Virus record (IMG/VR): IMGVR_UViG_3300017700_000657
Span: 1 to 58,339 of that record
Source: a virus
Taxonomy: Duplodnaviria; Caudoviricetes
Length of the DNA stretch: 58,339 nt
Direction: 5' to 3' (one strand)
Below are positions 18,103 to 56,669 of this stretch, in pieces (position 1 is the stretch's first letter; the number at the start of each line of letters is the position of its first letter). The notes beneath the pieces are model-generated. The model did no database searches. It was given only the letters and a program-made list of their open reading frames with translations, and was not told the DNA's origin. A program made the translations under genes and the position numbers.

Positions 18103-19848
18103 CTACGCCACGGCCGGCGTCAGCCCACCTCGTTCCCGCTTACTCTGCAAGATGCGGTCGATGGTGGCGGTAGCTTCAGCTTGGGTAAGCGTGGCGCAGG
18201 TTTGTTCGTCTAGGCCGAGTTGGTGCATCAAATGCAATTGCTTAGGAGTGGCTAGGTGCATCGAGGCGCGGGCATTGAGTCGGGCAATGATGCGGCTCGC
18301 GATGCCCTTGGTCTTGACACCTTCGACATTGAAGCCAAATCGCTTGATCAGCTCCAACTGCCCGACGCTCGCAGGGTGCGATTCCCAGTCATCCTTTGGC
18401 GTATAAGACGAAATGGCCGAGTCCCCGAGTGAGACTGCCCACGCAAGCGGATCGACGGTCCTGGCTTTCTTGGCGGCGTGCTTCTTGGCCTCCTTCTCTA
18501 GTGACTTGATGAAATCCCGCTCCGCCTTCTCGGCCGACCCCTCCTCTAGCGGGCCTTCGGACTTCATGCGCTCCTTGATTTCGGGCCGGTCGGTCACAAG
18601 GTCGTAGGCGTCGCACAGTTCAATCTCGTCGCATTTGCAGAACGGGTCATAGATCAGGAAATTGGGCTTCGCGGACGCAGCGATGGCGGCGCGGCGCTCC
18701 TCGGCGGTGAAAAGCCCGTCAACGGTGCCCTTGAGTGGGCGCGTGGCACGACCAATCTTTTGCCGGTAGTAGGAGCGCGACTTGGTGATGCCGGCAAAAA
18801 CAAAGTCCACATCGGGCACGTCAAAGCCTTCGGTGTAGAGTGCCGCGGTGCAGAGCATGATGCCGGTCCCTGATGTGGTGTCGTGCTCCACAAACACCTC
18901 GGTTTTCTCGTCGCGGTCAAGGCACTCGCCGGAAACGAAGATGGCGCGCAGTCCGTTTCGGTTCAGCGCCTCGGCCAGCATTTCAGCGGTCTTGACCGAT
19001 GGCATAAACGCCATGCCCTTGCGACCGGAGCCATGGAACGCCATGCGCGAGGCCAGCGCCTCGATAACAGGGATCATGCGCTCCGCGACCTCGGTCGGGT
19101 TGTAGTCGCTGCCGTGGCTGGTCCGCGTAGCACGCAAGCCTTTGAAGTTAATTGCCAGCGGTTCCATGATGGCTCGCGGCATTACGAGCCAGCCGTCTTT
19201 GACTGCGTTAAGCAACTGGTAGCGGTAGGCGATGGTCTGGTAGAACTCGCCGAGGTTGCGGTTACTAGATAGCTCTGGCGTCGCCGTTACACCTAGCACG
19301 TCACACTTTGGCTGATACGAACCGTCGATTGGCGGCTTCCATCCTTCGGCCAATGAATCGGCGCCGTAGTGAAAATAATTGAAGACCTTGGCCCAGCTCT
19401 TGGCGATGGAGTGATGTGCTTCATCACCAATTACTTGCGAAAAGTGATTGTCGGCAAATCCAGTCAAGCGTGCCGTGCGGCAAAGCGTCTGCACGGATGC
19501 GACTACGATAGGCACGAACGGCGACGCGTGCTCGCCAGCCATTTCAATGTCCACCTCAAGGCCAGTTTCCGAGCTAAGGCGTTTCGCTGTCTGCCTTACA
19601 AGAGCATCGCGGTTTTCAAGCACCAGCGTGCGTCCTCCGTCGCGCAGCCAGCGGTCACGGGCCATGATAGAGCAGATGGAGGTCTTGCCCGTTCCGGTCG
19701 CCATGTCGAGCAACTGGCGGCTGAACGCGCCCCAGTTTGCTTGAATTGCGGCGCGTGCGGCTTGCTGGTAGTCGCGCAGGTTGATGCGCAGTTCGGCAGC
19801 GGGCGCGGCTTCCACCTCGTCCCAGTCAATGTCGAGGAGGGCGCTCAC
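18103..19848 (-). CDS. Superfamily 2 DEAD/H helicase
   Basis: ATGTGKT, DEAHH, TATP, TEGFDVP and QKIGRATR motifs. Confidence 0.93.
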   Translation of the reverse strand: MSALLDIDWDEVEAAPAAELRINLRDYQQAARAAIQANWGAFSRQLLDMATGTGKTSICSIMARDRWLRDGGRTLVLENRDALVRQTAKRLSSETGLEVDIEMAGEHASPFVPIVVASVQTLCRTARLTGFADNHFSQVIGDEAHHSIAKSWAKVFNYFHYGADSLAEGWKPPIDGSYQPKCDVLGVTATPELSSNRNLGEFYQTIAYRYQLLNAVKDGWLVMPRAIMEPLAINFKGLRATRTSHGSDYNPTEVAERMIPVIEALASRMAFHGSGRKGMAFMPSVKTAEMLAEALNRNGLRAIFVSGECLDRDEKTEVFVEHDTTSGTGIMLCTAALYTEGFDVPDVDFVFAGITKSRSYYRQKIGRATRPLKGTVDGLFTAEERRAAIAASAKPNFLIYDPFCKCDEIELCDAYDLVTDRPEIKERMKSEGPLEEGSAEKAERDFIKSLEKEAKKHAAKKARTVDPLAWAVSLGDSAISSYTPKDDWESHPASVGQLELIKRFGFNVEGVKTKGIASRIIARLNARASMHLATPKQLHLMHQLGLDEQTCATLTQAEATATIDRILQSKRERGGLTPAVA

Positions 19849-20087
19849 TTAGCAGACGAAAATATATTCAGCCCCATAATCGCCCCCAGCACCAAGTCGC
19901 GATCCGCCTCGGTGGTGAACGCAATGCCGCCACCGGGCAGTTGCAGGGCCATCCAGCCCCGCGTTTCGGACAACGCCTCGATGGTGTTGCCAGCGCCAGC
20001 GCGCAGCTTGACGGCGGGCGTGGCAGAGCGCACGGCTTCGGGCCATGCGGGGTCGAGTTCGGCGGCGGTGATGGGTGGTTTGGTCAT
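19845..20087 (-). CDS. Hypothetical protein
   Basis: 80 aa; overlaps the helicase start. Confidence 0.6.
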   Translation of the reverse strand: MTKPPITAAELDPAWPEAVRSATPAVKLRAGAGNTIEALSETRGWMALQLPGGGIAFTTEADRDLVLGAIMGLNIFSSAK

Positions 20088-20096
20088 AATAATCAG

Positions 20097-20195
20097 TTAC
20101 CAGAATTTAAGGATGAAGTGGACGGCGACGTAGCCGACGGCGCACCAGAATATCAGGTGCGTGATGATTTGGAAGAATAGGAGGAAGCTTCTCAT
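20097..20195 (-). CDS. Small membrane peptide (32 aa)
   Basis: MRSFLLFFQIITHLIFWCAVGYVAVHFILKFW fills the gap. Confidence 0.45.
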   Translation of the reverse strand: MRSFLLFFQIITHLIFWCAVGYVAVHFILKFW

Positions 20196-20204
20196 GGGTA
20201 ATGT

Positions 20205-20522
20205 TTAGCCTAGGACCAACCACCGCAACGACCACCGTTTGCGCAGTTCACGAAACAGCAGATCAAAACCGCAGGAGCGCGATTTGACGAACGATTGGCC
20301 GAACAGGCGCGGCTCAATGCCGTTGCGGCGATTGCCTTGGTGGATCGTTATGGCGTAGCTGATATTTTTTACGTGGTCTGTGACGCGGATCGTTTTGAGC
20401 AAAGTTCCGGCATCTGGAGCGCGGAGCGGTGGGCCGAGGAAGGCGCGGCGACATTGGCGGGATGCCTTTCGGCCGGCGCCTAGATTGGCAATGGCTCGAT
20501 CACTGTTGCCGTAAATTCTCAT
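20205..20522 (-). CDS. Hypothetical basic protein
   Basis: 105 aa ORF flanking the cassette array. Confidence 0.6.
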   Translation of the reverse strand: MRIYGNSDRAIANLGAGRKASRQCRRAFLGPPLRAPDAGTLLKTIRVTDHVKNISYAITIHQGNRRNGIEPRLFGQSFVKSRSCGFDLLFRELRKRWSLRWLVLG

Positions 20523-20526
20523 GGGA

Positions 20527-20880
20527 TTATGATATTATATTGTTCGGCGAAGAACGGAAGGGCGATCCGTCGAGGCGGTTTCGCGTGAGGTAGTCCGCCG
20601 CGTGATAGGCCATTGCGTTCGTGCGGTCCTGCTTGCGGAGCGCGATAATCATTCGCTTCACCAGCGCGATCAGGTCATCGGCTTGGGTTGCAGCGTCGCG
20701 CAGGCCGAGAATGAATCGCTTCGTCTCGCGTTCACCCTCGTCATCGAGTGCGCCGAGAGCGTCGAGCATTTCTTCTGCGTGGTCAGCTTCGGCGCGGAGC
20801 CAAGCCGCCGAACCAAGCGCTACAGCACAACGCGGCGATCCGTCCTCGCTCGCGGGTTTTGTGGTGGATTCGTTACTCAT
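20527..20880 (-). CDS. Cassette gene, hypothetical protein
   Basis: Starts inside attC 20807-20918; ends SPNNIIS across the entry site. Confidence 0.7.
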   Translation of the reverse strand: MSNESTTKPASEDGSPRCAVALGSAAWLRAEADHAEEMLDALGALDDEGERETKRFILGLRDAATQADDLIALVKRMIIALRKQDRTNAMAYHAADYLTRNRLDGSPFRSSPNNIIS

Positions 20881-20918
20881 TGGAAGTTTGCGCCGCGTGG
20901 CTGACCTTGGTGTTCTCT
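20807..20918 (+). other. attC-like recombination site
   Basis: GCCGAAC-CAAGCGC-TACAGCACAACGCGGCG...CGCCGCGTGGCTGA-CCTTGGT-GTTCTCT. Confidence 0.8.
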
Positions 20919-21256
20919 TCCGGCTGGCGCGATTTCGACTGTGCTATCAGTCGGCCAAGCTGTGCTGCGCATTGCGATTGCACGTCGCCAGCCTGCGAGC
21001 ATACAGCGGCGAGCGCGTGCCTTTCTTTGAGGCGAGCGGATTCGGCCCTCTCGCGCCACCACTCGGCCTTGCGGCTCCATTCACGTTCCAGCGCCTCGGC
21101 TTCCACGACAGGAAGAGAACCAGTCGCTACAGCAGCAACGACCTTGGCTCGGCCTGCGGGTTCGGGCGGGGCGAGTTCGCGCGTGGCTTCCTCACGTCCT
21201 GCCTTTCGACCGCGTTTGTATGCTTCTTCAATGAGTATCTCGGCGTTGGTTTTCAT
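20873..21256 (-). CDS. Cassette gene, hypothetical protein (MKTNAEILIEE...)
   Basis: ATG inside attC 21114-21301; ATGA overlap with the upstream ORF. Confidence 0.65.
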   Translation of the reverse strand: MKTNAEILIEEAYKRGRKAGREEATRELAPPEPAGRAKVVAAVATGSLPVVEAEALEREWSRKAEWWRERAESARLKERHALAAVCSQAGDVQSQCAAQLGRLIAQSKSRQPEENTKVSHAAQTSNE

Positions 21257-21301
21257 GCGTCTTTTCTCCGTTCTCGGTCGTGGCTGATCTCCGCGTTCGA
21301 C
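21114..21301 (+). other. attC-like recombination site
   Basis: AGAGAAC-CAGTCGC-TACAGCAGCAACGACC...GGTCGTGGCTGA-TCTCCGC-GTTCGAC. Confidence 0.72.
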
Positions 21302-22446
21302 GGCGCGGCGAAAAACGCTCGGGCAAATTCCATCCTTTTGTGCAGCGCAGCCGAGGGGTTTCCCGCAGCAAATTGCCAAGCTCGCGCCGTATCTACCTCG
21401 CCAAGCAATCGCACCGTGTCTTCGGCTTTTTCTGCACGCTTTGAGCACTCCACAAGACTGTCCTTGATCTGCTCGATCTCTCGGGCGCGCACTTCGAGCT
21501 TGTATTCCATGCGCCCAATAGTCGCGCGATACGCCTCGATTTCGTCCGAGTGTTTTGAGATTTCGATGCAGGCATCGCGGTATTTTGCCGCCCAATCGCT
21601 TTCGTCGAGCCGCTTGTCGGCTTCGCAGGCGTAGTCCTTGAGCGCGGCGCAGATTGCTTCGTGCTGCTGATGCGTCGGGGTTTCTTGCAGCTTGGCCCAT
21701 AGGGTGGAGGCTGCGTCTCTAGCGTCTTTGTCGTATTTGGTTTTCATTCGGAAGAATAGTTTTCGGGTATCAGTGGCGCGCCTTTCGAACGAAGAGAATT
21801 GCGCACAGCACTGTTCCGCGAATTCGACCGAGAACCAGTCATCCGCGCGGAGTTTCCCTTCCATGTCCACCCACCATCCGGGGCGGGCGATTCGGCTGAT
21901 CGTTTGCAGTTCAGCGGCGAGATTATCCGGGCCGAGTCCGCCAGCGAATCCGACCACTTTCGCGGTGTTGGGATGCTGCCACGATTCGGGAGAGATTCCC
22001 CGGCCTCCGCTGCCGTCCACCAGCAGGACATGGTTTTCCGCATCGACCGCCATCAGGTAGCGATTCTGCGGCATGTGCTGGGTGATGATCGTGTGGCTCG
22101 GATAGAGGCGGCAGAGATGCCGCACGTCGGGGATTTCGAGCAGGCCGTTGACCTGGATGCGCTGGAATCCACTGACAGGCAGGCTGCCTTCCATCAGCTT
22201 CGCCCGCGCTCCGCGTCCGCAGACATGCAGTGATGCGCGGCGGAGTTCGAGCGACGTTTCCCGAATCCATTCCCATCGCGGGTATCGGTTCCGGCCTTCT
22301 GGCGTTTCCGTGTAGAGCAGCCCGATTTCGGCATCCAGTTTCGCCAGTGCTGATACGTCCGTCCGCTCATCCGCGCCTGTCACAGTCAAGAACGGTGAAC
22401 AAGTGCCTGATCCCAACGGGGACCGCTCTGTTGTCGAAGTTTTCAT
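21253..22446 (-). CDS. PRAI (TrpF)-like TIM-barrel protein fused in frame to a coiled-coil protein (second start at 21747)
   Basis: VTGAD, LVDGSGGRG, VGFAGGLGPDN and WVDMEGKLR motifs; the distal 164 aa look unrelated. Confidence 0.7.
   Translation of the reverse strand: MKTSTTERSPLGSGTCSPFLTVTGADERTDVSALAKLDAEIGLLYTETPEGRNRYPRWEWIRETSLELRRASLHVCGRGARAKLMEGSLPVSGFQRIQVNGLLEIPDVRHLCRLYPSHTIITQHMPQNRYLMAVDAENHVLLVDGSGGRGISPESWQHPNTAKVVGFAGGLGPDNLAAELQTISRIARPGWWVDMEGKLRADDWFSVEFAEQCCAQFSSFERRATDTRKLFFRMKTKYDKDARDAASTLWAKLQETPTHQQHEAICAALKDYACEADKRLDESDWAAKYRDACIEISKHSDEIEAYRATIGRMEYKLEVRAREIEQIKDSLVECSKRAEKAEDTVRLLGEVDTARAWQFAAGNPSAALHKRMEFARAFFAAPSNAEISHDRERRKDA
21784..21819 (+). other. Collapsed attC remnant
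   Basis: TTCGAAC...GTTCCGC only 36 bp long; CGCGCCTTTCGAAC is near-complementary to cassette start GTTCGACGGCGCG at 21295. Confidence 0.45.
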
Positions 22447-22513
22447 TTTGATAGGTAGCTGTGTGAGTATTCAACGCTCGCTCTCGTCCCCGTGGGATAG
22501 GCTGGCGTTAGAG
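22394..22513 (+). other. attC-like recombination site
   Basis: GGTGAAC-AAGT-GCCT(G)ATCCCA(A)CGGGGAC...GTCCCCGTGGGATAGGC-TGGC-GTTAGAG; two extrahelical bases on the left arm. Confidence 0.85.
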
Positions 22514-22915
22514 TGCCCTGATTTTGCCATGCAGTCGCGCCCGCACAGACCCGCAGGCGAGCATCATTTCCGGGTAGTCGAGCTTGTAGATTGGCGCGAT
22601 TTTGTAGAGCGCCCACGCTGCCGGGTTGCGGACGTTCCCAGCTTCGAGTTGCTCGATGTAGCGCGCTTCGACGCCGCTTTTGTTTGCCACTTCGGCCGGC
22701 GTGAGTCCGGTGAGTTCACGCGCAACGCGCATCACGGTTGCAAACGTGAGCCCCGAGTCTTCGAGGGGCACCCTAACCCCGGCATCACAGCCAACGCGCC
22801 TGACTGAGCCTGCGAATGCGGACAGGGCGCGTCCGCTCGCTGCCTTTTCGGCGTCGGTTTGGTCTTGGAGTGCGGAGTCCAATTTGCGGAGGTCGCTGAG
22901 GATTTGATGTCTCAT
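22508..22915 (-). CDS. Cassette gene, XRE-family HTH regulator
   Basis: ARELTGLTPAEVANKSGVEARYIEQLEAG...NP; stop is the TAA of TAAC. Confidence 0.8.
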   Translation of the reverse strand: MRHQILSDLRKLDSALQDQTDAEKAASGRALSAFAGSVRRVGCDAGVRVPLEDSGLTFATVMRVARELTGLTPAEVANKSGVEARYIEQLEAGNVRNPAAWALYKIAPIYKLDYPEMMLACGSVRARLHGKIRAL

Positions 22916-22963
22916 GGGTTTGCTTCTGCGCTCTGGGCGCGTTGCTGACTGCCAATGTTCGCC
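22771..22963 (+). other. attC-like recombination site
   Basis: CCCTAAC-CCCGGCA-TCACAGCCAACGCGCC...GGCGCGTTGCTGA-CTGCCAAT-GTTCGCC. Confidence 0.75.
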
Positions 22964-23241
22964 CAATCAAGTGAGCGCGTCTCAGTTCCACACCAAGGGC
23001 AGAAATTCACGGCGGGAAGTTCGCACCCAAAACGGATCGAACTTGGATCATCTCCGTATGCGCTGGCGAGCTTTCCGTAAGCCTCATTGTCTGTTCCCGA
23101 TGTGAAGGCGAGCGCCATATCAGAACAGCACACTTGTCTAGGTTCGTATTTGCCGCGCACCCAAACTCGGGCGAACAATGGCGTTGCAGGGTCAACCGCC
23201 TGGGCGGTCTGGTCTTCGATGGTTTCTGGCTTCGGTTTCAT
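22912..23241 (-). CDS. Cassette gene, small Cys-rich (zinc-ribbon-like) protein
   Basis: CC...FCPWCG motif; starts inside attC 23170-23302. Confidence 0.7.
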   Translation of the reverse strand: MKPKPETIEDQTAQAVDPATPLFARVWVRGKYEPRQVCCSDMALAFTSGTDNEAYGKLASAYGDDPSSIRFGCELPAVNFCPWCGTETRSLDWANIGSQQRAQSAEANP

Positions 23242-23302
23242 CTTTTGGTTTTCAGAGTTGATTGGTTTCTAGTCGGCGGTGCCCTGAACTTTGGCGTTGG
23301 GC
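23170..23302 (+). other. attC-like recombination site
   Basis: GGCGAAC-AATGGCG-TT(G)CAGGGTCAACCGCC...GGCGGTGCCCTGAA-CTTTGGC-GTTGGGC; R' fits GTTRRRY. Confidence 0.85.
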
Positions 23303-23767
23303 CGAATGTAGTTGGCTTGGATTAGTTAGATACCGTTCAATGACGGCTTTCGCGTCCTCGGTGCTGCGGCACACCATTGCGGCATAACCCTGCTCTGATG
23401 CGTAGGAAATGAAAGCGTTCTGCTCATCCCTGACGCGCCCCGTCGCTGTCTTCATTTCGACGTAAAGACCATGCCAGTGCCCGCGCGGGACGCTCAGAAA
23501 CAAATCAGGAACTCCGGGCCTTAATCCCTCGCGCTTCAAAAATACCATCGCCAGTGGGTCGCGCCGACCGCCGTTCGGAATTGAAAACAGCAGGCGCTCG
23601 GGAATGCCGTAGGATTTGCACGCAACAGCCCACCACTTAATGAGTGCGCACTGCATGGCGCTTTCCTCGTTGCCGTGCTTTTTCTTGGGAGGCGGGACCG
23701 GCACGTTCTCGCCGGTCATGGCGTTGGATGCGATGATAAGCTCGCGGACTGTGACGTAGCGGGGCAT
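23252..23767 (-). CDS. VRR-NUC domain nuclease
   Basis: IPNGGRR, GVPDL, LYVEMKT...GR...Q motifs. Confidence 0.9.
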   Translation of the reverse strand: MPRYVTVRELIIASNAMTGENVPVPPPKKKHGNEESAMQCALIKWWAVACKSYGIPERLLFSIPNGGRRDPLAMVFLKREGLRPGVPDLFLSVPRGHWHGLYVEMKTATGRVRDEQNAFISYASEQGYAAMVCRSTEDAKAVIERYLTNPSQLHSAQRQSSGHRRLETNQL

Positions 23768-23772
23768 GGCGG

Positions 23773-24996
23773 TTATTGGCTGAACTGGACCAGATTACGG
23801 ACGCCCTGCGTGGCCAGCGGCGCAAACGTGCTGTCGAAAATACTGGCCGCGCTGACGCCAGCCTTGCTCGTTTTCGGCACGCCCATACTGCGGGCAATCT
23901 CATCCTTCAGTGCCGTCATACTCGGTTTCGTGACGCGGGCAATCTGCTCGTCCGCTGGCAGCAGTTCGCGCATGGCACGGAAGAACGCCTGCGGGTCGTT
24001 TACGCTCCATGCGCCCCGTTGCGTCACCCGTGTAATCACGGTGCCGTCTGCGGCCACCAGTTGCGGGCTGCGGTCAAGCCGGTCGTTTAGCATGGCCTTG
24101 GCGTCCTCGGTGGGCTTGGCCAGTTCCTTGGCGCCAATGATGAACTCCGCCAGCGTGGCGTCGTCGGGCTGGGCTTTAAGCGAGGCCAGCGATTCCTCTG
24201 TCATGGTCAGTCTCATAAGTTTTTGTTTGGCGCGGATCGCGGGGCATGAGCAGCCCACGCAGAAGCGACAGCCTTTGATGGTGGTGTTGAGTTCAAGCGG
24301 CCGACTGATGGCGTCGGTGATTTTACCTGCCAGCGTGGCAACCGCGGCATCGAGGTCAGTGATCGTGACGCACGATACGCGAGGATGGCCCTCGTTTACG
24401 CTGTCGCCGTCCTCGTCGTTACGCGGCTGCACGATATAAAAAGTCACGCTTTGCAGGCTGGGGTAAGCCCGCTTCAGAAGCACGCAGTATCCCAGAATCT
24501 GCCAGTTACTATCTGCGCAGTCCACTGGGTCGTAGCCGGTCTTCAAGTCCCATCCGATGGCGTGCGTGGCGTCTGGCGACAGGGCGAGGCAGTCGATGTG
24601 GCCGGATAGCGTGAAGCCGTTGTAGGGCTTGGTGCCAACCATTGGCCTGCCATTGAACCACTCAACGGTTTCAATTTTGCAAGGCGTGTCGGCGGTGAAC
24701 TCGTAGGCTAGCGCGGCTTCGCACTCCAATGAGTAGGATGCGGGCGTGCTCTCCATGACATGGCGCACGTAATAGTCACTGATCCATGTGCTGTGAGGAA
24801 ACGGGCCGCGAGGCTGCGGACCAATGTCACCGACCGCGCCCATCTCGGTCTTGATGCGCTGGGCGCTGATCCAGTGGCACCACGTCCCTTCGTCCCCATC
24901 ATCGCCATAGCGGGGTGCCACGATAGCGTTGACGGTGAGCGAGCCGGGGCAGGAGAGCACACGGTCGAGGCTGGAGCAGCGAATGGTCGGGATCAT
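23773..24996 (-). CDS. PD-(D/E)XK exonuclease (Cas4/RecB-like; likely RecT partner)
   Basis: SSLDRVLSCPGS, GTxxH, GHID, DLKTG, QxxxY, CRFCxxxxCP. Confidence 0.85.
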   Translation of the reverse strand: MIPTIRCSSLDRVLSCPGSLTVNAIVAPRYGDDGDEGTWCHWISAQRIKTEMGAVGDIGPQPRGPFPHSTWISDYYVRHVMESTPASYSLECEAALAYEFTADTPCKIETVEWFNGRPMVGTKPYNGFTLSGHIDCLALSPDATHAIGWDLKTGYDPVDCADSNWQILGYCVLLKRAYPSLQSVTFYIVQPRNDEDGDSVNEGHPRVSCVTITDLDAAVATLAGKITDAISRPLELNTTIKGCRFCVGCSCPAIRAKQKLMRLTMTEESLASLKAQPDDATLAEFIIGAKELAKPTEDAKAMLNDRLDRSPQLVAADGTVITRVTQRGAWSVNDPQAFFRAMRELLPADEQIARVTKPSMTALKDEIARSMGVPKTSKAGVSAASIFDSTFAPLATQGVRNLVQFSQ

Positions 24997-24997
24997 G

Positions 24998-25636
24998 TTA
25001 ATTATCAAACCAAAACACGAAACGAACATCCTCTGGTGCGGCCTTATGCAGCGCCATGCATATGGCTTTCCAGAACGACCCAGCGCACTGGTGATAGTAA
25101 CGCACCCACTCAACTTCGCAGTGCATTCCCTTGGTGTCGGAGCCAGCCGCAATCGCAGCCTCCATCTCGGAATGTGTGACTTTTCTCACTGCGCTTCCGA
25201 ATACTGCACCGCACCAAGACTCAGGTGCGCCACGGCGTTTCCAGTTATCAAAATTACGCGCGTCCACCAATCCGCTCAGTGTTGTCTTCTGATTCCAGTC
25301 GTAGTCCAGAACTTCGCGCAGCGTGAGCCACGAATGCGAGTGACCATCGCGTTGCCAATACTTGGCTTCGGCGCGCACTTGCTCGGAAATGTCATCTGGC
25401 AAGCCCTTCGGTTGCGCGATAGGGTTGAATCCGGCGCCGGTATTTACTCCGGCAAAACCGCGTCCGTTGCGCACGTCCGCAAGGATCGCGAACAAGTTGT
25501 AGTTGCGGTCATAGTAAGCCATGTCGTCGTAGGCGACCGAGGCGCGGCCTTCCTTGTATTTGTCGGACCAGACATCAGCGGACTTCCACTGACCGTCGAT
25601 TTTTTGCTCTTGGTATAGGTGAATGTCGCAGCCCAT
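24998..25636 (-). CDS. Hypothetical phage protein (MGCDIH...RFVFWFDN type)
   Basis: RNYNLFAILADVRN and HSHSWLT motifs of a recurrent phage family. Confidence 0.8.
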   Translation of the reverse strand: MGCDIHLYQEQKIDGQWKSADVWSDKYKEGRASVAYDDMAYYDRNYNLFAILADVRNGRGFAGVNTGAGFNPIAQPKGLPDDISEQVRAEAKYWQRDGHSHSWLTLREVLDYDWNQKTTLSGLVDARNFDNWKRRGAPESWCGAVFGSAVRKVTHSEMEAAIAAGSDTKGMHCEVEWVRYYHQCAGSFWKAICMALHKAAPEDVRFVFWFDN

Positions 25637-27354: not shown

Positions 27355-28533
27355 TTAATCCACAACCTCCAAGTCAGCCGCCGCGGCCTCAATGCTGATC
27401 ACGTCCGACTTAATGCTTTGCTTCGTCGGGTCAGGCTTGCCGTCCGCGCCCTTCGGGATAACCAGCCGTCCGCGCAGTTTAATGACCACGTTGGCGCCGA
27501 CCTTCCACACGTCAGGAATGGTGATCGTGGGCTGTGCCGCCGTGATGTCCGGCGAGTCAGCGCCACCGAAGTGCCAGATTTGGCCGTTGAAGTCACCTTT
27601 GACGGTCGCAGCGACACTGGCTTTTTGCACGCCACCGCGCAGCATCCGGCAGGGCTCGAACTTTACGATGGTGCAGTTGGCCGTCAGTTCTTCGTCAGCC
27701 TTGAGGAAGACGCGGGGCGTGGCGGCAGCAGCGGCAGGCGCAGGGGCGGCGGCGGGCTCTGGCGCTACCACGGGAGCGGTCTTGACCGGCTCTGGAGCCG
27801 GTTGCTTCACGGGCTCAGGCGCAGGCTCCGGCACCACGGTCGCCGGCACCTCGATTGCGGGCGCTTTGTTTTCAACCACGGCAGCGGCGCCCTTCTTGGC
27901 GCGCGGCGGCGGAGCCTGGCGTTGCGGCACAGGATCGGCAACGGGCGCAGCGGCCGGTGCGTCACCCGTGCCGGTCACGTTTACGATCTCGGCGTCCTCG
28001 GGGATTTCATCCGCGCTCGTGACGCCCAGCATCAGTTCAGGCATGTGCCGGCGAGCCCAGATGCGGGCGCCGATGTAGCACATTTGCTGATCGGGATTTT
28101 TCTGCATCTGGCCATTTTTGTTGATGGCGCAGGCTTGTGAATAGCTGAGGTCAATGGTCAGCGGCTCAGTCTTGCCGCGAAGGGTGCCGGACACCACTAA
28201 GGAGCGTTGTGCGCCGGTTCCGCTGAACGTGTAGCTAAGGCGTTTCGACAGGTTGGCGCGGGTATTGATGACGGCGGCGACCAGTTGGCCCTCATACATC
28301 AGCTTGCCGCTGATGACGCTCGTCTTGTCGGCGACGGCGAAGGGGTCCATGCCCCACTTTGCGGCCTGCATGACAACGCGCAGGCAGTCGGACGGCGAGC
28401 CTTGGAGGTGGGCCGGGATGAGCTTGGCTTTGCTCATTTGGAGGCTGAAATCGTTCGCTTCGATGAGCGTGGCGATGTTGAACAGGGAAGGCTGTTGGGC
28501 CTGATGGATGGCGAGTTGGTTATTTTCGGACAT
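27355..28533 (-). CDS. RecT-like single-strand annealing protein
   Basis: IPAHLQGSPSDC, WGMDPFAVA, YEGQL, PDQQM..., WARRHMPE; Pro/Ala linker. Confidence 0.85.
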   Translation of the reverse strand: MSENNQLAIHQAQQPSLFNIATLIEANDFSLQMSKAKLIPAHLQGSPSDCLRVVMQAAKWGMDPFAVADKTSVISGKLMYEGQLVAAVINTRANLSKRLSYTFSGTGAQRSLVVSGTLRGKTEPLTIDLSYSQACAINKNGQMQKNPDQQMCYIGARIWARRHMPELMLGVTSADEIPEDAEIVNVTGTGDAPAAAPVADPVPQRQAPPPRAKKGAAAVVENKAPAIEVPATVVPEPAPEPVKQPAPEPVKTAPVVAPEPAAAPAPAAAAATPRVFLKADEELTANCTIVKFEPCRMLRGGVQKASVAATVKGDFNGQIWHFGGADSPDITAAQPTITIPDVWKVGANVVIKLRGRLVIPKGADGKPDPTKQSIKSDVISIEAAAADLEVVD

Positions 28534-29556: not shown

Positions 29557-29982
29557 TCATGGTTGTTTTGTGGTTGATGGTTGTTGTTTGTCGGAGCTAG
29601 GTGTGACCGCGTTATATAAGTTCCAAACCCGCTCCCCATACTCAATGGCACCGCCACCGCTGCGGGCGCGCTGCGTAAACCCGACGAAGCCGAAGCGCCA
29701 GCATACAGCCAACGTGTAGGCGTTCACGGGATAGCCGTGGGCGCGCATGGTGCGCGATAGCCAAGCAATGTGCCTGTCGGCCACGTCGCGGGCGTAGATC
29801 GGGATACTGGCAAGGGCGTAGGTGCGCTTACTGTGGTCGCGCCATGTGCCGGGTTGGATGGCGTAGGCTCCGCCTGGGTCGGACCACTTGTGGCCCTCGA
29901 CCTGCATGATTGCTTGCAAAAAGCGGTCGTTGTCGAACGCGTCGAGCGGGGCGTGGGCGGCGGCGATTAGGGTGGTGATCAT
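29557..29982 (-). CDS. Lysozyme-fold/lytic transglycosylase-like protein
   Basis: AIMQVE (candidate catalytic Glu), GAYAI..TW, AVCWxxG, YGERVW. Confidence 0.6.
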   Translation of the reverse strand: MITTLIAAAHAPLDAFDNDRFLQAIMQVEGHKWSDPGGAYAIQPGTWRDHSKRTYALASIPIYARDVADRHIAWLSRTMRAHGYPVNAYTLAVCWRFGFVGFTQRARSGGGAIEYGERVWNLYNAVTPSSDKQQPSTTKQP

Positions 29983-30413
29983 GATTCAACCTCCATGATT
30001 CGCGGGTGAAAAATAACGAGCGCGCTCGGGAATGGCGCTGAATTGTGATGCCCGCCGAATTTAAGGCGCCCGCGAATGAAGCGAACTTCACCCTTAGCTG
30101 CGTAGTCGTGCCACCACGATGTATCTGTCCGCGACGGAACGAGACAGACCACGAGTGCGCCTGCCTGTGCCGACTCGTAAGCTTTGCGCATCCATGTCGC
30201 AATCGTGCGGCCATATGGCGGATTCATCCAGACGCGCCCGCGCCAGTCTTGCGCAAGGCCGTCGTGCTCTTTGGTGAAAAAGCGCGGCGCCTTGTGGTTG
30301 TCGGCAGTAGCGCACGCGTCCAGTTCAAACGGGCCAAACTCTTCGGCGCACTTGGCGAAAAAGTCAGGCGGCGTTGCCCACTCGTCGGAGGCGGAGGAAA
30401 AATGGACATTCAT
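29979..30413 (-). CDS. Phage DNA N6-adenine methyltransferase (Dam family)
   Basis: EWATP, LDACA, DGL, WMNPPYG, RTDTxWW and RGRLKF motifs. Confidence 0.93.
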   Translation of the reverse strand: MNVHFSSASDEWATPPDFFAKCAEEFGPFELDACATADNHKAPRFFTKEHDGLAQDWRGRVWMNPPYGRTIATWMRKAYESAQAGALVVCLVPSRTDTSWWHDYAAKGEVRFIRGRLKFGGHHNSAPFPSALVIFHPRIMEVES

Positions 30414-35248: not shown

Positions 35249-35522
35249 GTTTGGATTATGGGAAGCTGATTTCGGTTAGTTGAGTGGAGGGAAAAGTTGA
35301 GCCGATATGCGGACAATAGTTTTGCGCTCTCGTTTGGCGAGCAAAAGTTTTCGTTTTACCACTAATGACGCGCAAGCCATTGCGAACTAGCTGCTTGCAG
35401 CGCACTATTTTTTGGGCCTTTGGGTAATAGTGGGAAAATGGATACGGTTTTAGCGGGCTGGCAATTGGCTAGGAGCGGCATTGCAAGCTTGCGAGCCGAG
35501 GCGAGTTGGGCCAATGGCAGGC

Positions 35523-36062
35523 ATGAGTAACTTACTTGATATAGATGAGGAAACGGCCGCGCCGGAAAGGGACGGCAGGGCGAGAACGAGCGCGGCGAAC
35601 GGCGCCAAGGGCGGAATGCCAGCGGGCGCATACATGAAACCTCACGCCGATAAGAAAACCTACGACGCGGACCAATTGGCGAAGCAATTTGCGGATCGGC
35701 TTTTGAACGGCGGACCGTTGCCAGTGAGCCGGGCGCAAAAGCCAAACGAGGCGGACCGCGCTCACGTTGCCAGAATTACAGGGGTTACAGTGGAAGACTT
35801 TCAAGCCAAGTTTTTGCAACGGCTTATGACCATCGCGGACAAGGCAGCGAACCACATAGAAGAAAGGTTAGACGAAGGTGGGCAGCGTTTGAGCGATTTG
35901 AACATGACGCTGGCAATCTCCGTTGATAAGATGGCCGCAATCTCGGGCCGGACGGCGCAAGCTGGCAACGTATCGGTGACGGTTAACAATTACGGGGCGA
36001 TGAGTCGGGAACAGATTTTGGCCTCCTTGCACAAAGAGGAACGAAACGTCACGCCTAGTTGA
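35523..36062 (+). CDS. Putative terminase small subunit
   Basis: Helical core with a TerS-like tail (VSVTVNN...REQILASL); next to repeat-rich non-coding DNA. Confidence 0.45.
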   Translation: MSNLLDIDEETAAPERDGRARTSAANGAKGGMPAGAYMKPHADKKTYDADQLAKQFADRLLNGGPLPVSRAQKPNEADRAHVARITGVTVEDFQAKFLQRLMTIADKAANHIEERLDEGGQRLSDLNMTLAISVDKMAAISGRTAQAGNVSVTVNNYGAMSREQILASLHKEERNVTPS

Positions 36063-36183
36063 GAACTAGTCTCAACTAGGAAATGAGAACGAGTCTCAAC
36101 TAAGAAGCATAGGCTCAAACTATGGTTTGGCGCAAAGCATAGGAGCGAACTATTCGAGTTAGTTGAGAACGGGTCGCAATAAG
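36054..36183. repeat. Three TGAGAACNNGTCNCA boxes (first inside an 11-bp perfect inverted repeat) and two AAGCATAGG...AACTAT repeats
   Basis: Boxes at 36060, 36084 and 36164; repeats at 36105 and 36135. Confidence 0.8.
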
Positions 36184-36573
36184 TCTTTTCTGTGTGTAAG
36201 CTTTTTTCATGCTCCGCGCGCAACGTGCTGTGCGTTACGCGCGCCGTCCTATGCCCTTTTTAGGCGATTTGACGGCCCGCAGGTAGTGGAGTGCCCGTTT
36301 TGCGCGGAAAGGGCAGAATGGGCAGGAATTTCCTAGGGGTTTTCCGCAATTGGCGTTATCTATCGCTAACGGTCGTTAGTGAACGGCGCAAACAGGCTAG
36401 TTTTGCGACGATCCTCGCGTTTTGGGCCGAACCGGCAGAGGGCGGGGGCGGGGGCCTGGGTTTCGAGCAAAGACAGAAACGCCAATACATCCGCCCCCAT
36501 AATAAAAATTTTGCAGTAAGCCTTCCGTCCGCAAAACTCAGCCCCGTTTTTTAAAAAATAAAAAACAGTTTCA

Positions 36574-36733
36574 ATTCATTCACGAAACTACCGTGAACTC
36601 ACGATTCATTTTTGGCCTCCTCGTTTTTGTTCACGCAACCTCGATTTCCGTTGACACGGAAAATCGAGGGTTTCGTGAATAAAATCTCACGCATCCACGA
36701 ATGTGAACGAAAAACATGGATTCGTGAATGAAT
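36574..36733. repeat. Nested inverted repeats with TCACG units (res-site or origin candidate)
   Basis: ATTCATTCACGAA (36574) pairs with TTCGTGAATGAAT (36721); internal hairpin at ~36630-36679. Confidence 0.75.
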
Positions 36734-55313: not shown

Positions 55314-55583
55314 ATGACCCTAGCCGATCAACAACTCGCGCGCCAAAAGCGCATTCAAGCCTCGCTCATCGGCCTCGCTGCCGATACCCGTTTCCGCGAC
55401 TTCATGGAAACCGTGCGCGAGTGCCGTGAAGGCGCGCTGCTCAACCTTGTGGACGGTGCCGTGATCCAGAACGAGCGCGCCTCACTGGCCTGCACGGGCG
55501 AAATCGCCGCCTATATGGCGCTCATTCGCACGTATGACGAGGCGGTGGCGCAGGCGGCGCTGGCGAGGGAGGAGAAGGCGTAA
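55314..55583 (+). CDS. Small protein after portal
   Basis: 89 aa helical protein in a typical post-portal position. Confidence 0.7.
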   Translation: MTLADQQLARQKRIQASLIGLAADTRFRDFMETVRECREGALLNLVDGAVIQNERASLACTGEIAAYMALIRTYDEAVAQAALAREEKA

Positions 55584-55668
55584 CACTAAAGCTCAGACAC
55601 GAGCGTAGGACCAACCATGAAAACCAAAAAGAGCGCAGCCCGCTCGTTGTCTGTGGCGATTGTTCGGC
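55578..55668 (-). other. attC-like recombination site
   Basis: Plus strand: GCGTAAC-ACTAAAG-CTCAGACACGAGCG...CGCTCG(T)TGTCTG(T)GGCGATT-GTTCGGC. Confidence 0.78.
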
Positions 55669-55946
55669 GCTTCCGATTTCTGCGCGTCGGCGAATACCCA
55701 CGCAAGGGCGACCAATTCCTATACTGCGGAGATTCACCCGGAGAAAAACGCGGCTGGAAGAACGCAGAAGCAAACCTTGTGGCTAAGTGGCGCGGCCCTG
55801 TGCCGTCGTGGTATAAGGGCCGATACCGCCGCCGCGTCGAAAAGAAGGAATCCGCTGAAATGAAAATGGTCCGCGCTCGGCTCGCCGCAACATATCGAGC
55901 CGGATTCGTGGAGCAATTCCGCGTCTTGCCGAACATTAAGGTCTGA
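55617..55946 (+). CDS. Cassette gene, basic hypothetical protein
   Basis: ATG in the attC loop with AGGA upstream; ends LPNIKV in the next attC. Confidence 0.7.
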   Translation: MKTKKSAARSLSVAIVRRFRFLRVGEYPRKGDQFLYCGDSPGEKRGWKNAEANLVAKWRGPVPSWYKGRYRRRVEKKESAEMKMVRARLAATYRAGFVEQFRVLPNIKV

Positions 55947-56021
55947 CATGACGCGCTCTCCCTCACGATCCGAACACCCCGCGGTCGAGTGCGCGGCATT
56001 GTCAGAAGCGTCTGGTTCCAC
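55928..56021 (-). other. attC-like recombination site
   Basis: Plus strand: GCCGAAC-ATTAAGG-TCTGACATGACGCGC...GCGCGGCAT(T)GTCAGA-AGCGTCTG-GTTCCAC. Confidence 0.78.
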
Positions 56022-56038
56022 CTAAACTTTTACCCACT

Positions 56039-56440
56039 ATGGAAACACAAAAACCAACCCCCGATCAAAAACCTACTGCGAGGACAAATCTGAGCCCCGA
56101 GGAGCGCTTTCGCTCCGGGCTATCTCTCGGCTTCATTGCGGGCGTGCTCGCGACCGCAATCGTGCTGCTCTGTTCAGCGTTGCTGGCTTTATTCATAGTT
56201 GAGACCCGCAACGTAAAGACAGAAGCGACTGCCGCAAATACCTCAGCCAAGCCCGTGTTTATCGGAGCTGGCCAGCCAACCCCATTCCACCACTGCATTG
56301 TGCTGGGCGCTGGAGCGGAGCCACAAAAAGATTACGGACTGGTCACCGGTTCACTGACGGGACCGAATTGCGGCAGGATCTGCCACGGGGCAAGACGGTC
56401 GATCTTTTGCCGTCGTGGCCGAAATGAGTGGAACAACTGA
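56039..56440 (+). CDS. Cassette gene, single-TM membrane protein
   Basis: Hydrophobic segment LGFIAGVLATAIVLLCSALLALFIV; ends EWNN across the entry site. Confidence 0.6.
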   Translation: METQKPTPDQKPTARTNLSPEERFRSGLSLGFIAGVLATAIVLLCSALLALFIVETRNVKTEATAANTSAKPVFIGAGQPTPFHHCIVLGAGAEPQKDYGLVTGSLTGPNCGRICHGARRSIFCRRGRNEWNN

Positions 56441-56669
56441 TTCCGCGAACCACTTCGCATATCCAGCCGCGCCCACCCAGCGCGGCTTTTCCATGCCCCA
56501 AAATCGTGCAAAATGCACGATCTACCTCTGATCGCGCGCTATAGCCACGACCATGCAATTTGCACGACTCCGCCATTGACATTGCAAATTGCACGATTAG
56601 TTCAATTGGCCACACGGCAATCCTGCCGCGCGCTAGGATTTAGAAACAGCCCCTTGACGGCTCTAACTC

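What the first reader, a model, noticed from the sequence alone, without database searches (positions are those of the whole stretch)
20542..23302. Phage-borne integron-like cassette array with every gene antisense to attC and no integrase
Seen: five imperfect hairpins (20807-20918, 21114-21301, 22394-22513, 22771-22963, 23170-23302) separate small accessory genes. Read on the plus strand, each has the attC layout: AAC, short unpaired spacer, left arm with extra bases, variable loop, right arm, GTT. Each R'' box matches the start of its own cassette better than the R' of its own hairpin, which is the mark of cassettes that once circularised. The pairs are GTTCGGCG (20542) with CGCCGAAC (20806), 8/8; GTTCTCTTCC (20912) with GGAAGAGAAC (21111), 10/10; GTTAGAGTGCCC (22507) with GGGCACCCTAAC (22766), 11/12; and GTTCGCCC (22957) with GGGCGAAC (23169), 8/8. 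Established: IntI recombines folded single-stranded attC at G|TT, and cassette ORFs normally point towards their attC. Here all ORFs point away from it, and I found no tyrosine recombinase in this complete genome. Inference: the phage uses a host integron integrase in trans to gain and shuffle phage-adapted cassettes.
Basis: partly seen in the sequence, partly recalled or inferred. Interest (0 to 1): 0.93.

Follow-up and report, generated by a model that had tools for sequence, protein, structure and literature searches.

The report
Backwards integron cassettes in a phage
A complete freshwater phage genome without any integrase carries two arrays of small genes bounded by integron-type folded recombination sites, with every gene on the opposite strand to textbook cassettes, and single cassettes recur in unrelated phages, which suggests that phages trade accessory genes through the integron mechanism.

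Summary
All five hairpins and all four box pairs are at the stated coordinates. They belong to a family of 21 sites that I collected in four phage records. Each has invariant AAC and GTT ends, an unpaired spacer, extra bases mostly on one arm and a variable loop.

The GTT box after one site pairs with the AAC box across the next gene in 15 of 17 cases. No permutation out of 20000 matched this. Real integron arrays beside intI show the same rule.

The closest relative has entirely different genes at this locus. An unrelated phage shares only two cassettes with the window. Contigs from four other studies break at the G|TT points, and one holds cassette 22507-22959 at 100% identity in foreign surroundings.

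The genes lie on the attC bottom strand, the reverse of 38 of 43 control cassettes. No tyrosine recombinase was found in six phage records.

Weak points: a bacterial attC covariance model gives only site 22394-22513 about 21 bits, fold z-scores are ordinary, and 7 of 21 sites are overlong.

That a host IntI acts in trans is inference. Phage CALINs are published (Qi 2023), so this is a new variant. Unchecked AI notes of this scan describe similar arrays on other DNA.

The parts
20519..20549 (+). Entry end of array 1. It is a G|TT without a hairpin (G at 20542), followed by R' box GTTCGGCG and preceded by AT-rich DNA.
   Evidence: Sequence. The box pairs 8/8 with 20806-20813. Homology to G001 ends at 20554. 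Contigs of other runs diverge at 20544, 20548 and 20554.
20804..20921 (+). attC-like site W1, top strand. R'' is 20806-20813 and GTT is 20912-20914. The loop holds the stop of g2 and the ATG of g1.
   Evidence: Arm alignment gives score 11.5 with 5 extra bases on the left arm and 0 on the right. CM R2 gives 6.4 bits at 20807-20918. Contig breaks lie at 20911 and 20912.
21111..21304 (+). attC-like site W2. R'' is 21111-21120 and GTT is 21295-21297. The loop holds the stop of g3 and the ATG of g2.
   Evidence: Arm score 7.2 with extras 2/0. The R'' and left arm 21111-21144 recur in several contigs of run X11. Contig breaks lie at 21294-21301. CM R2 does not hit it.
22391..22516 (+). attC-like site W3. 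R'' is 22394-22400 and GTT is 22507-22509. The loop holds the ATG of g3, and the stop of g4 lies in R'.
   Evidence: Arm score 14.0 with extra bases at about positions 16 and 22. CM R2 gives 21.3 bits. The fold z-score is -1.65 on the + strand and -2.39 on the - strand. The same arms flank the PRAI-like gene in L019 and L020.
22766..22966 (+). attC-like site W4. R'' is 22766-22777 and GTT is 22957-22959. The loop holds the stop of g5 and the ATG of g4.
   Evidence: Arm score 11.0. An X11 contig matches 22507-22959 at 100% and diverges on both sides.
23167..23305 (+). attC-like site W5. R'' is 23169-23176 and GTT is 23296-23298. The loop holds the stop of VRR-NUC and the ATG of g5.
   Evidence: Arm score 10.5 with extras 3/0. 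CM R2 gives 10.8 bits at 23170-23302. Homology to G001 starts at 23296. Contig breaks lie at 23172 and 23298.
20527..20880 (-). g1, a cassette gene of 117 aa with unknown function.
   Evidence: ORF. No Pfam family was found. A 44% homologue sits next to the PRAI-like cassette in L019.
20873..21256 (-). g2, a cassette gene of 127 aa with unknown function.
   Evidence: ORF with ATGA/TAA overlaps to its neighbours. No family passed the cut-off.
21253..22446 (-). g3, 397 aa. It has an N-terminal PRAI-like domain, then about 170 further residues with no stop and no hairpin between them. It looks like two units fused.
   Evidence: The 120 best homologues, of 559 with E<=0.001, are 218-337 aa long and cover 47-57% of g3. 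The conserved body runs from the GTT box (CSPF) to the AAC box (SSVN) of the homologues.
22508..22915 (-). g4, a cassette gene of 135 aa, an XRE-type helix-turn-helix protein.
   Evidence: Pfam HTH_31 at E 6.4e-06, just under its cut-off, and phrog_7241.
22912..23241 (-). g5, a cassette gene of 109 aa with unknown function.
   Evidence: ORF. No family was found.
55575..55671 (-). Array 2, attC-like site X1, with the top strand on the minus strand. The loop holds the ATG of gene 55617-55946.
   Evidence: Arm score 10.3 with the extra base on the arm that is 5' on the minus strand. Homology to G001 ends at 55579.
55925..56024 (-). Array 2, attC-like site X2, with the top strand on the minus strand.
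   Evidence: Arm score 13.1. The cognate boxes are GTTCGGC 55662 with GCCGAAC 55934, and GTTCCAC 56015 with GTGGAAC 56434.
55617..56440 (+). The two cassette genes of array 2, 55617-55946 (109 aa) and 56039-56440 (133 aa), and the end box at 56428-56434.
   Evidence: ORFs. No PHROG family was found. G001 has a different 174-bp gene without a hairpin at this place.

Best explanation
Region 20542-23298 and a second stretch, 55582-56434, are arrays of integron-type gene cassettes without an integrase, that is, CALINs, in a complete virulent-type phage genome.

Each cassette carries its own attC-type site. The site has an R box with AAC/GTT, an unpaired spacer, an L box with extra bases on the R''-L'' arm, a conserved extrahelical T on the bottom strand, and a long variable loop.

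Cassettes are inserted and excised as units by single-strand recombination at G|TT. That is why the R'' box of each site is complementary to the first bases of its own cassette.

Unlike classical cassettes, the gene lies on the attC bottom strand. In six of the seven sites the ribosome site and start codon of the cassette gene sit in the loop. In five of the seven the upstream gene stops in the loop, and in the other two it stops at the R box. So an inserted cassette is at once joined to the phage operon.

Shown here: the site architecture, the box signature, cassette-wise replacement between phages, the orientation, and the lack of an integrase.

Inferred: the enzyme is most likely a host integron integrase acting in trans during infection. 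The arrays were probably seeded by insertion at a plain GTT secondary site at the 3' end of a phage gene.
For: 1. Architecture.
- AAC, the AA of CAACG, and GTT are invariant in 21 of 21 aligned sites from four phage records.
- Extra bases number 49 on the top-strand 5' arm against 16 on the other arm. The 5' arm has more in 16 of 21 sites.
- The conserved extra A (bottom-strand T) sits 14-19 nt after AAC in the six window sites that I counted by hand from the arm sequences. That is about positions 21-26. Nivina 2016 (PMC5027507, passages) give a conserved T at 23/24 and a spacer of 5-6 nt.
- Each site's own arms pair better than arms of other sites, 11.3 against 4.7.

2. Crossover signature.
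- Cognate boxes match over 7 nt or more in 15 of 17 pairs. None of 20000 permutations reached this.
- The same rule is visible in arrays beside intI, for example GTTCGGG followed by CCCGAAC.

3. Mobility.
- G001 is syntenic at 65-98% identity but has no homologue of g1-g5.
- G005 shares only the PRAI-like and g1-like cassettes with the window, and these carry W3-like arms.
- Of the 23 loose ends listed, 18 lie inside the array. Eleven of those 18 lie within -2 to +8 nt of a predicted G|TT. That window is 66 of 2757 nt, so about 0.4 would be expected by chance.
- An X11 contig equals 22507-22959 at 100% identity with unlike DNA on both sides.

4. Bacterial attC model. The model recovers 11 of 11 held-out sites. 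It gives W3 21.3 bits, L019 20.5 and L020 18.8, all on the predicted strand.

5. R boxes. GCCGAAC and GTTCGGC boxes occur in arrays upstream of IntI genes.

6. Orientation. The longest ORF is on the top strand in 38 of 43 control cassettes. It is on the bottom strand in 12 of 13 phage cassettes.

7. Lineage. More distant relatives have exo, VRR-NUC and helicase genes with no array between them.
Against: - The bacterial attC model leaves W2, W4, X1 and X2 unhit. W5, W1 and the G001 sites score 11 bits or less, at the level of noise, which reached 11.5 bits.
- Fold energies are not unusual for four of the five sites.
- The bottom strand is not consistently the more stable strand.
- Seven of 21 sites exceed the published 57-141 bp range.
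- The fourth R-box base is C, not a purine.
- The sites lie almost wholly in coding DNA, and every gene runs across a cassette border.
- In the A3 alignment the leader varies more than the body. A strict gene-plus-attC unit does not predict this.
- At array 2 the homology borders with G001 lie 3-4 nt and 32 nt from the predicted points.
- No IntI-linked array of this sequence family was found in the 80 IMG/VR IntI loci searched by sequence, nor noticed among the sites listed for 16 bacterial arrays.
- The evidence from other runs comes from contigs, not reads. No circle or excision junction was seen.
Confidence: 0.72

Rival explanations
1. The sites are attC-like in shape but are substrates of another recombinase, not IntI. 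This would be a phage or host enzyme not recognised here, for example a Xer-like or otherwise unrelated single-strand recombinase. It would cut at the same AAC/GTT core.
For: - A generic bacterial attC model misses most of the sites.
- This sequence family was not found beside IntI in the 80 IMG/VR loci, nor noticed among the sites listed for 16 bacterial arrays.
- Earlier unchecked scan notes tie similar phage arrays in Bacteroidota to Xer-like enzymes.
Against: - No PF00589 tyrosine recombinase is present in G000, G001, G005, G006, G007 or G008.
- G005 shares no protein with the window apart from the two cassettes.
- The extra-base layout, the conserved bottom-strand T and the box rule are those of IntI substrates.
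- The same R boxes occur in IntI-linked arrays.
Confidence: 0.13
2. The conserved junction sequences are linkers for relaxed homologous recombination by the phage's own RecT and exonuclease module. In this they would resemble the PeSL elements of T4-type phages. The hairpin shape would be secondary.
For: - The phage encodes a RecT-like protein (27355-28533), a DUF2800 exonuclease and a VRR-NUC.
- The 30-34 nt R''-L'' arm 21111-21144 recurs almost unchanged in several contigs with different flanks.
- Arms are similar between the window and G001 although the genes differ.
- Leader and body are mosaic in A3.
Against: - Homologous exchange does not explain why each gene body is bracketed by its own complementary GTT/AAC boxes.
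- It does not explain why identity starts exactly at GTT while the adjacent arm differs. The X11 and X8 loose ends at 22507 and 22959 show this.
- Array-bearing G005 shares no RecT or other protein with the window.
Confidence: 0.1
3. The hairpins are mRNA structures on the coding strand that set translation coupling or RNA processing. The cassette-like pattern would be a by-product of ordinary gene-boundary mosaicism.
For: - The folding strand equals the mRNA.
- Start and stop codons sit in the loops.
- All four transition mismatches in the arms are G.U-compatible on the coding strand, and none on the other strand.
Against: - No Rfam family was hit.
- An RNA role does not predict body-flanking complementary boxes, invariant AAC/GTT ends, or transfer of single units between unrelated phages at those points.
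- The arms lie in coding sequence in three different reading frames (read from the sequence).
Confidence: 0.04
4. The whole pattern arose by chance in GC-rich coding DNA.
For: Single measures are weak: the fold z-scores, the 8-mer pair clusters found in 50 of 500 shuffles, and the 45 seven-nt pairs across the window.
Against: - None of 20000 permutations reached the cognate-box score.
- The same design recurs in G001, G005 and G006.
- Contig breakpoints fall on the predicted sites.
Confidence: 0.01

Closest known systems
CALINs (clusters of attC sites lacking an integron integrase) in phage genomes: Qi, Rajabal, Ghaly, Tetu and Gillings 2023, Front Microbiol (PMC9892861; I read the abstract, section 3.4 and method passages)
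   Same: Both are attC-type sites delimiting small accessory genes in phages that have no integrase. In that paper 5 of 6 tested phage sites were recombined by IntI1, so trans action by a host integrase is plausible.
   Different: Their sites were found with IntegronFinder and HattCI at 20 bits or more, and the arrays shown have the usual gene direction. Here most sites fall below a generic model. Genes sit on the bottom strand in 12 of the 13 cassettes measured. In six of the seven window sites the start codon lies in the site loop. The same cassettes recur in unrelated phages.
Classical integron attC sites and sedentary chromosomal integron arrays: Nivina et al. 2016 NAR (PMC5027507, passages), and control arrays beside intI in 16 bacterial genomes
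   Same: Shared features:
- AAC/GTT core and R box pairing.
- Spacer of 4-6 nt.
- Extra bases on the R''-L'' arm.
- Conserved bottom-strand T near position 23.
- Similar sites within one array.
- Long loops, as in chromosomal arrays.
- The R'' box complementary to the start of its own cassette.
   Different: - There is no intI, no attI and no Pc promoter.
- The R box is mostly GCCGAAC/GTTCGGC, not TAAC/GTTA.
- A 5-bp stem, not a 6-bp stem, lies between the extra bases in W3.
- Seven of 21 sites are longer than 141 bp.
- Genes are reversed and run through the sites.
attG secondary-site insertion of cassettes by IntI: Loot et al., bioRxiv 10.1101/2022.09.11.507474 (passages)
   Same: Both arrays in the window, and the array in L019, end at a plain GTT with no hairpin and no attI features. 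This fits cassette insertion at a genomic 5'-GWT-3' site.
   Different: That work was done in E. coli with IntI1, IntI2 and IntI3. No such event has been observed for these phages.
PeSL mobile regulatory cassettes of T4-type phages: Arbiol et al. 2010 (PMC2839356) and the 2014 follow-up (PMC4122927). I saw only the search listing and the starts of the abstracts.
   Same: Both have repeated stem-loop motifs at the borders of accessory genes in hyperplastic phage regions, linked to modular gene shuffling without a dedicated recombinase in the phage.
   Different: From recall and the titles, PeSLs are intergenic promoter-terminator motifs exchanged by homologous recombination. The sites here are attC-shaped, lie in coding DNA and show the G|TT box signature.

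Membership tests
Integron attC site / cassette array (CALIN) | Conserved 5'-AAC...GTT-3' triplets at the two ends of the site (top strand) | tested here: met
   AAC and GTT are invariant in 21 of 21 aligned sites and in 17 of 17 in the first alignment.
Integron attC site / cassette array (CALIN) | R boxes fit RYYYAAC / GTTRRRY | tested here: inconclusive
   The consensus is GCCGAAC / GTTCGGC, which fits 6 of 7 positions; the fourth base is C or G. GAAC-type R'' boxes make up 33 of 193 sites in IMG/VR loci that encode IntI, and GCCGAAC/GTTCGGC occur there.
Integron attC site / cassette array (CALIN) | Imperfect hairpin with an unpaired central spacer and extrahelical bases on the R''-L'' arm | tested here: met
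   The spacer is 0-8 nt in the scanner's alignments, and 4-6 nt in several. Extra bases number 49 on the R''-L'' arm against 16 on the other arm. That arm has more in 16 of 21 sites, with 3 ties and 2 reversed. Control arrays beside intI show the same layout.
Integron attC site / cassette array (CALIN) | Conserved extrahelical T on the bottom strand near position 23/24, about 6 bp beyond the first extra base | tested here: met
   The AA of CAACG is invariant. The partner arm reads C-ACG in most sites. I counted positions about 21-26 by hand from the arm sequences. In W3 the stem between the extra bases is 5 bp, not 6. The reference values are from PMC5027507.
Integron attC site / cassette array (CALIN) | Length 57-141 bp | tested here: not met
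   AAC-to-GTT lengths are 79-187 nt. With full R boxes, 7 of 21 sites exceed 141 bp.
Integron attC site / cassette array (CALIN) | R'' of a cassette is complementary to the first bases of the same cassette, implying crossover at G|TT | tested here: met
   15 of 17 cognate pairs match over 7 nt or more, and none of 20000 permutations reached this. The same rule is seen in arrays beside intI.
Integron attC site / cassette array (CALIN) | Recognised by an attC covariance model | tested here: inconclusive
   Model R2 was built from 41 bacterial sites and recovered 11 of 11 held-out sites at 32-45 bits. Among the phage sites, W3 scores 21.3, L019 20.5, L020 18.8 and 13.8, W5 10.8, Gb 9.2 and W1 6.4. 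W2, W4, X1 and X2 get no hit. Noise reaches 11.5 bits. IntegronFinder and HattCI were not available.
Integron attC site / cassette array (CALIN) | Cassettes behave as separate mobile units bounded at G|TT | tested here: met
   An X11 contig equals 22507-22959 at 100% identity with unlike flanks. Eleven of the 18 loose ends inside the array lie at a G|TT. Two cassettes are the only DNA shared with G005.
Integron attC site / cassette array (CALIN) | The cassette ORF lies on the top strand and points towards its attC | tested here: not met
   The longest ORF is on the bottom strand in 12 of 13 phage cassettes, and on the top strand in 38 of 43 control cassettes.
Integron attC site / cassette array (CALIN) | IntI-dependent recombination of the folded bottom strand | not testable with these tools
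   This needs an attC x attI or attC x attC assay.
Complete integron | intI gene with attI and Pc promoter next to the array | tested here: not met
   No PF00589 match was found in the complete record or in G001, G005, G006, G007 and G008.
T4-type PeSL cassettes | Intergenic early promoter plus stem-loop terminator motif | not tested
   The sites here lie in coding DNA with gene overlaps of 4-8 nt. I ran no promoter scan. The definition of a PeSL is from recall.

The most novel reading that the evidence does not exclude
Phages of unrelated lineages in fresh and waste water share a pool of phage-adapted integron cassettes built back to front. The attC bottom strand is the coding strand, and the site loop carries the ribosome site, the start codon and the first codons. 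Any insertion at a GTT inside a phage operon therefore yields an expressed, translationally coupled gene. The phages carry no recombinase and borrow the integron integrase of whichever host they infect. That would make host integrons a general gene-exchange service for virulent phages.
Probability: 0.4. Interest if true: 0.85.

Novelty: new variant of a known kind. Interest (0 to 1): 0.72.

Why it matters
Integrons are treated as bacterial devices, and phage CALINs as rare passengers: Qi et al. found 17 in 10,705 genomes.

Here the cassettes are built for phage use, and related phages carry entirely different sets. Single units recur at 100% identity in other habitats and in unrelated phages.

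If an integron integrase drives this, it would explain how small orphan genes spread between virulent phages. It would also give a rule for delimiting such genes in metagenomes. And it would mean that standard attC models miss a large class of sites.

The reversed design, with translation signals inside the recombination site, bears on how attC strand choice and expression are linked.

Tried and rejected
- **Chance.** I rejected it only after combining the tests. Single measures were weak.
- **Rfam.** No family was hit in 19800-24000.
- **GenBank phage collection.** blastn found no match for 19800-24000.
- **tRNA scan.** None was found.
- **Bacterial PRAI-like homologues.** Four genomes carry one, but none is flanked by these sites.
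- **Empty site for the L019 array.** Only relatives at 35-38% identity were found, and they share no upstream gene.
- **blastn-short against IntI loci.** I searched the 21 sites against 80 IMG/VR loci that encode IntI. There was one 16-nt hit and no shared family.
- **Model R1.** RNAalifold found no base pair, so I replaced it with R2, using pairs counted.
- **A model of the phage family.** I did not build one. MAFFT could not align the right arms consistently.
- **The 11-nt pair 21270/21835.** It lies in the conserved DWFS codons of the PRAI-like body. I treat it as chance and not as a remnant site.
- **Read laying.** The four runs did not cover 20570-20837, 20972-21105, 21374-21641 and 21910-22445. 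With contigs this shows nothing.
- **Earlier scan note about phage-borne IntI next to such arrays.** I tested it only by sequence similarity and found no link for this family.
- **Not used.** Structure prediction, complex prediction and the protein atlas.

Full report
**What the window is**

The window is a complete virus record of 58339 bp with a 123-bp terminal repeat. It encodes these proteins:
- a large terminase
- a RecT-like protein
- a DnaB-like helicase
- DNA methylases
- a DUF2800 exonuclease (23773-25152)
- a VRR-NUC nuclease (23252-23767)
- an SF2 helicase (18103-19848)

No PF00589 tyrosine recombinase is present.

Between VRR-NUC and the helicase side lie five minus-strand genes. 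Their starts and stops overlap or nearly touch:
- g1, 20527-20880
- g2, 20873-21256
- g3, 21253-22446
- g4, 22508-22915
- g5, 22912-23241

**Checking the observation**

The five hairpins and the four box pairs are in the sequence as described.

Each measure alone is weak:
- DNA fold z-scores are -0.25, +0.37, -1.65, -1.19 and -0.46.
- Three or more 8-nt GTT/AAC pairs within 2.8 kb occur in 50 of 500 shuffles.
- A hairpin scan anchored on AAC and GTT gives 10 hits scoring 10 or more, against 4.8 in 40 shuffles.

The strength is in the design:
- Six of those 10 hits lie in two arrays.
- All six have their extra bases on the arm that is 3' on the local coding strand.
- Sites of the same build stand at the gene junctions examined in the closest relative, G001. 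They also flank a shared gene in two unrelated phage contigs.
- In an alignment of 21 sites, AAC, the AA of a CAACG motif and GTT are invariant, while the stems differ.
- Each site's own arms pair far better than arms taken from other sites: 11.3 against 4.7, with the own arm the best partner in 16 of 21.
- The motif falls in different reading frames in g1, g4 and g5. I read this from the sequence. It means the conservation is at the nucleic-acid level.

**The crossover signature**

I compared the GTT box that follows each site with the AAC box that precedes the next site, across the gene body.
- These 17 cognate pairs match over a mean of 7.5 nt, and 15 of them match over 7 nt or more.
- The 272 non-cognate pairs average 4.3 nt.
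- A site's own two boxes match over only 3-5 nt in most cases.
- None of 20000 permutations reached the observed sum.

The failing pair spans g3.

Real arrays beside intI genes show the same rule, for example GTTAGAA followed by TTCTAAC, and GTTCGGG followed by CCCGAAC. I know of no process other than recombination at G|TT in a circular cassette that produces this pattern.

**Comparison with canonical attC sites**

Nivina et al. 2016 (passages) give these features:
- a spacer of 5-6 nt
- an extra base at position 16
- a conserved bottom-strand T at 23/24
- a length of 57-141 bp
- long loops and similar sites within chromosomal arrays

The phage sites compare as follows:
- Spacers are mostly 4-6 nt.
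- W3 has extra bases at positions 16 and 22.
- The conserved extra A (bottom-strand T) sits at about positions 21-26, counted by hand.
- Seven of 21 sites are too long.
- The R box is GCCGAAC/GTTCGGC. Such boxes do occur in arrays upstream of IntI genes in IMG/VR contigs.

As a control, my scanner found regular arrays beside intI in 15 of the 16 bacterial loci that I scanned (L086 gave none). Scores fell in the same range as the phage sites, and the extra bases lay on the same arm.

I then built a covariance model from 41 of those bacterial sites.
- It recovered all 11 held-out Piscinibacter sites at 32-45 bits.
- It gave W3 21.3 bits, the L019 site 20.5 and two L020 sites 18.8 and 13.8.
- W5 scored 10.8, Gb 9.2 and W1 6.4. 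W2, W4, X1 and X2 were not hit. Noise reached 11.5 bits.

So membership by model is only partly shown.

**Mobility**

- G001 (58530 bp) is syntenic with the window at 65-98% identity.
  - It has no homologue of g1-g5. About a dozen other small genes lie between the same flanks.
  - Homology stops at 20554 and resumes at 23296.
- More distant relatives have exo, VRR-NUC and helicase genes with no array between them.
- The second array, 55579-56466, replaces a 174-bp gene of G001.
- The N-terminal half of g3 belongs to a widespread PRAI-like family.
  - In phage contig G005 this gene has W3-like arms and is followed by a g1 homologue.
  - Nothing else in that 45.9-kb record resembles the window.
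- Contigs of four runs from four studies were laid on 19900-23900.
  - Of the 23 loose ends listed, 18 lie inside the array. Eleven of those fall within -2 to +8 nt of a predicted G|TT. That window is 66 of 2757 nt, so about 0.4 would be expected by chance.
  - Four more fall at the outer edge of an R'' box.
  - One contig equals 22507-22959 without a single difference and diverges on both sides.
  - Three runs join 21140 to 22504 with 150 other letters between, so the g3 cassette is absent there.
  - These are contigs, so no circles or rare variants can be seen.

**Orientation**

The strand that carries the extra bases in its 5' arm is the attC top strand.
- In control arrays the longest ORF lies on that strand in 38 of 43 cassettes.
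- In the phage arrays it lies on the other strand in 12 of 13.
- The start codon of the cassette gene lies in the site loop in six of the seven window sites.

**The enzyme**

- No PF00589 protein is found in six phage records.
- The array-bearing phages share no other protein.
- IntI passes its cut-off in 3 of the 4 bacterial genomes that hold PRAI-like homologues. It does so in 112 of 301 sampled genomes of their class. That tally includes three unpublished genomes.
- 430 IMG/VR stretches encode IntI relatives. None of the best 80 loci holds this site family.

Host IntI acting in trans is therefore the most economical reading, but it is inference.

**Literature**

- Phage CALINs and their recombination by IntI1 are published (Qi 2023).
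- Insertion at plain GWT sites is published as a preprint.
- Two searches found no paper on reversed phage cassettes with start codons in the site.
- AI notes of this scan report similar arrays in other phages: 158 notes in at least 134 genomes. Most are unchecked, and I treat them as leads only.

Noticed in passing
window 21253-22446: g3 looks like two units fused. All 120 listed homologues are 218-337 aa long, cover only the first 47-57% of g3 and end just after an SSVN (AAC box). The window reads on for about 170 residues with no stop and no hairpin. An internal ATG lies at 21745-21747. This is the one cassette whose flanking boxes fail to match (4 nt).
   Followed up: partly
window 35300-36600: This is a low-GC stretch (about 55%) with repeated 8-mers: GTTGCCAG twice and GTTTTGCG twice, each with an inverted partner. 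It also holds a strong AAC/GTT-anchored hairpin at 36391-36548 (score 13) that lacks the CAACG motif. The region is poorly conserved in G001. It may be an origin or a regulatory region and is not part of the cassette family.
   Followed up: no
window 20088-20526: The coding here is ambiguous. There is a minus-strand ORF at 20205-20522 and a plus-strand ORF at 20295-20483, in DNA that is 90% identical to G001. Joining the two ends of array 1 at AA|C would let VRR-NUC end in a TGA that overlaps the ATG of 20205-20522. The same holds for the L019 array and its downstream gene.
   Followed up: partly
L019 5194-5209 and 5951-5966: A 16-nt direct repeat, AACAGATCAGATGAGG, stands on both sides of the PRAI-like cassette. 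It gives the upstream backbone gene and the cassette gene the same NRSDE tail. It may be the 5' arm of the next site kept at both junctions.
   Followed up: no
L019 5200-6400: The two cassettes have 56-61% GC, against 45-56% in the 2.4 kb upstream and 53% in the next 400 bp (the following 800 bp reach 57-60%), as expected for imported DNA.
   Followed up: no
L091-L170 (IMG/VR): 430 stretches of IMG/VR contigs encode relatives of integron integrases. The best 80 are 47-64% identical over the full length and have ordinary attC arrays upstream. Some may be proviruses or bacterial DNA.
   Followed up: partly
L032 1154-1517 and L033 1180-1842 (G006): Further AAC/GTT hairpins scoring 11-14 lie elsewhere in the 27.8-kb contig G006, on both strands. 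This suggests several arrays in that phage.
   Followed up: no
window 29979-30413: This small minus-strand gene has a 34% homologue directly downstream of the PRAI-like cassette in L020. In the window it lies in another block of small genes, where the scanner found no hairpin scoring 10 or more.
   Followed up: no
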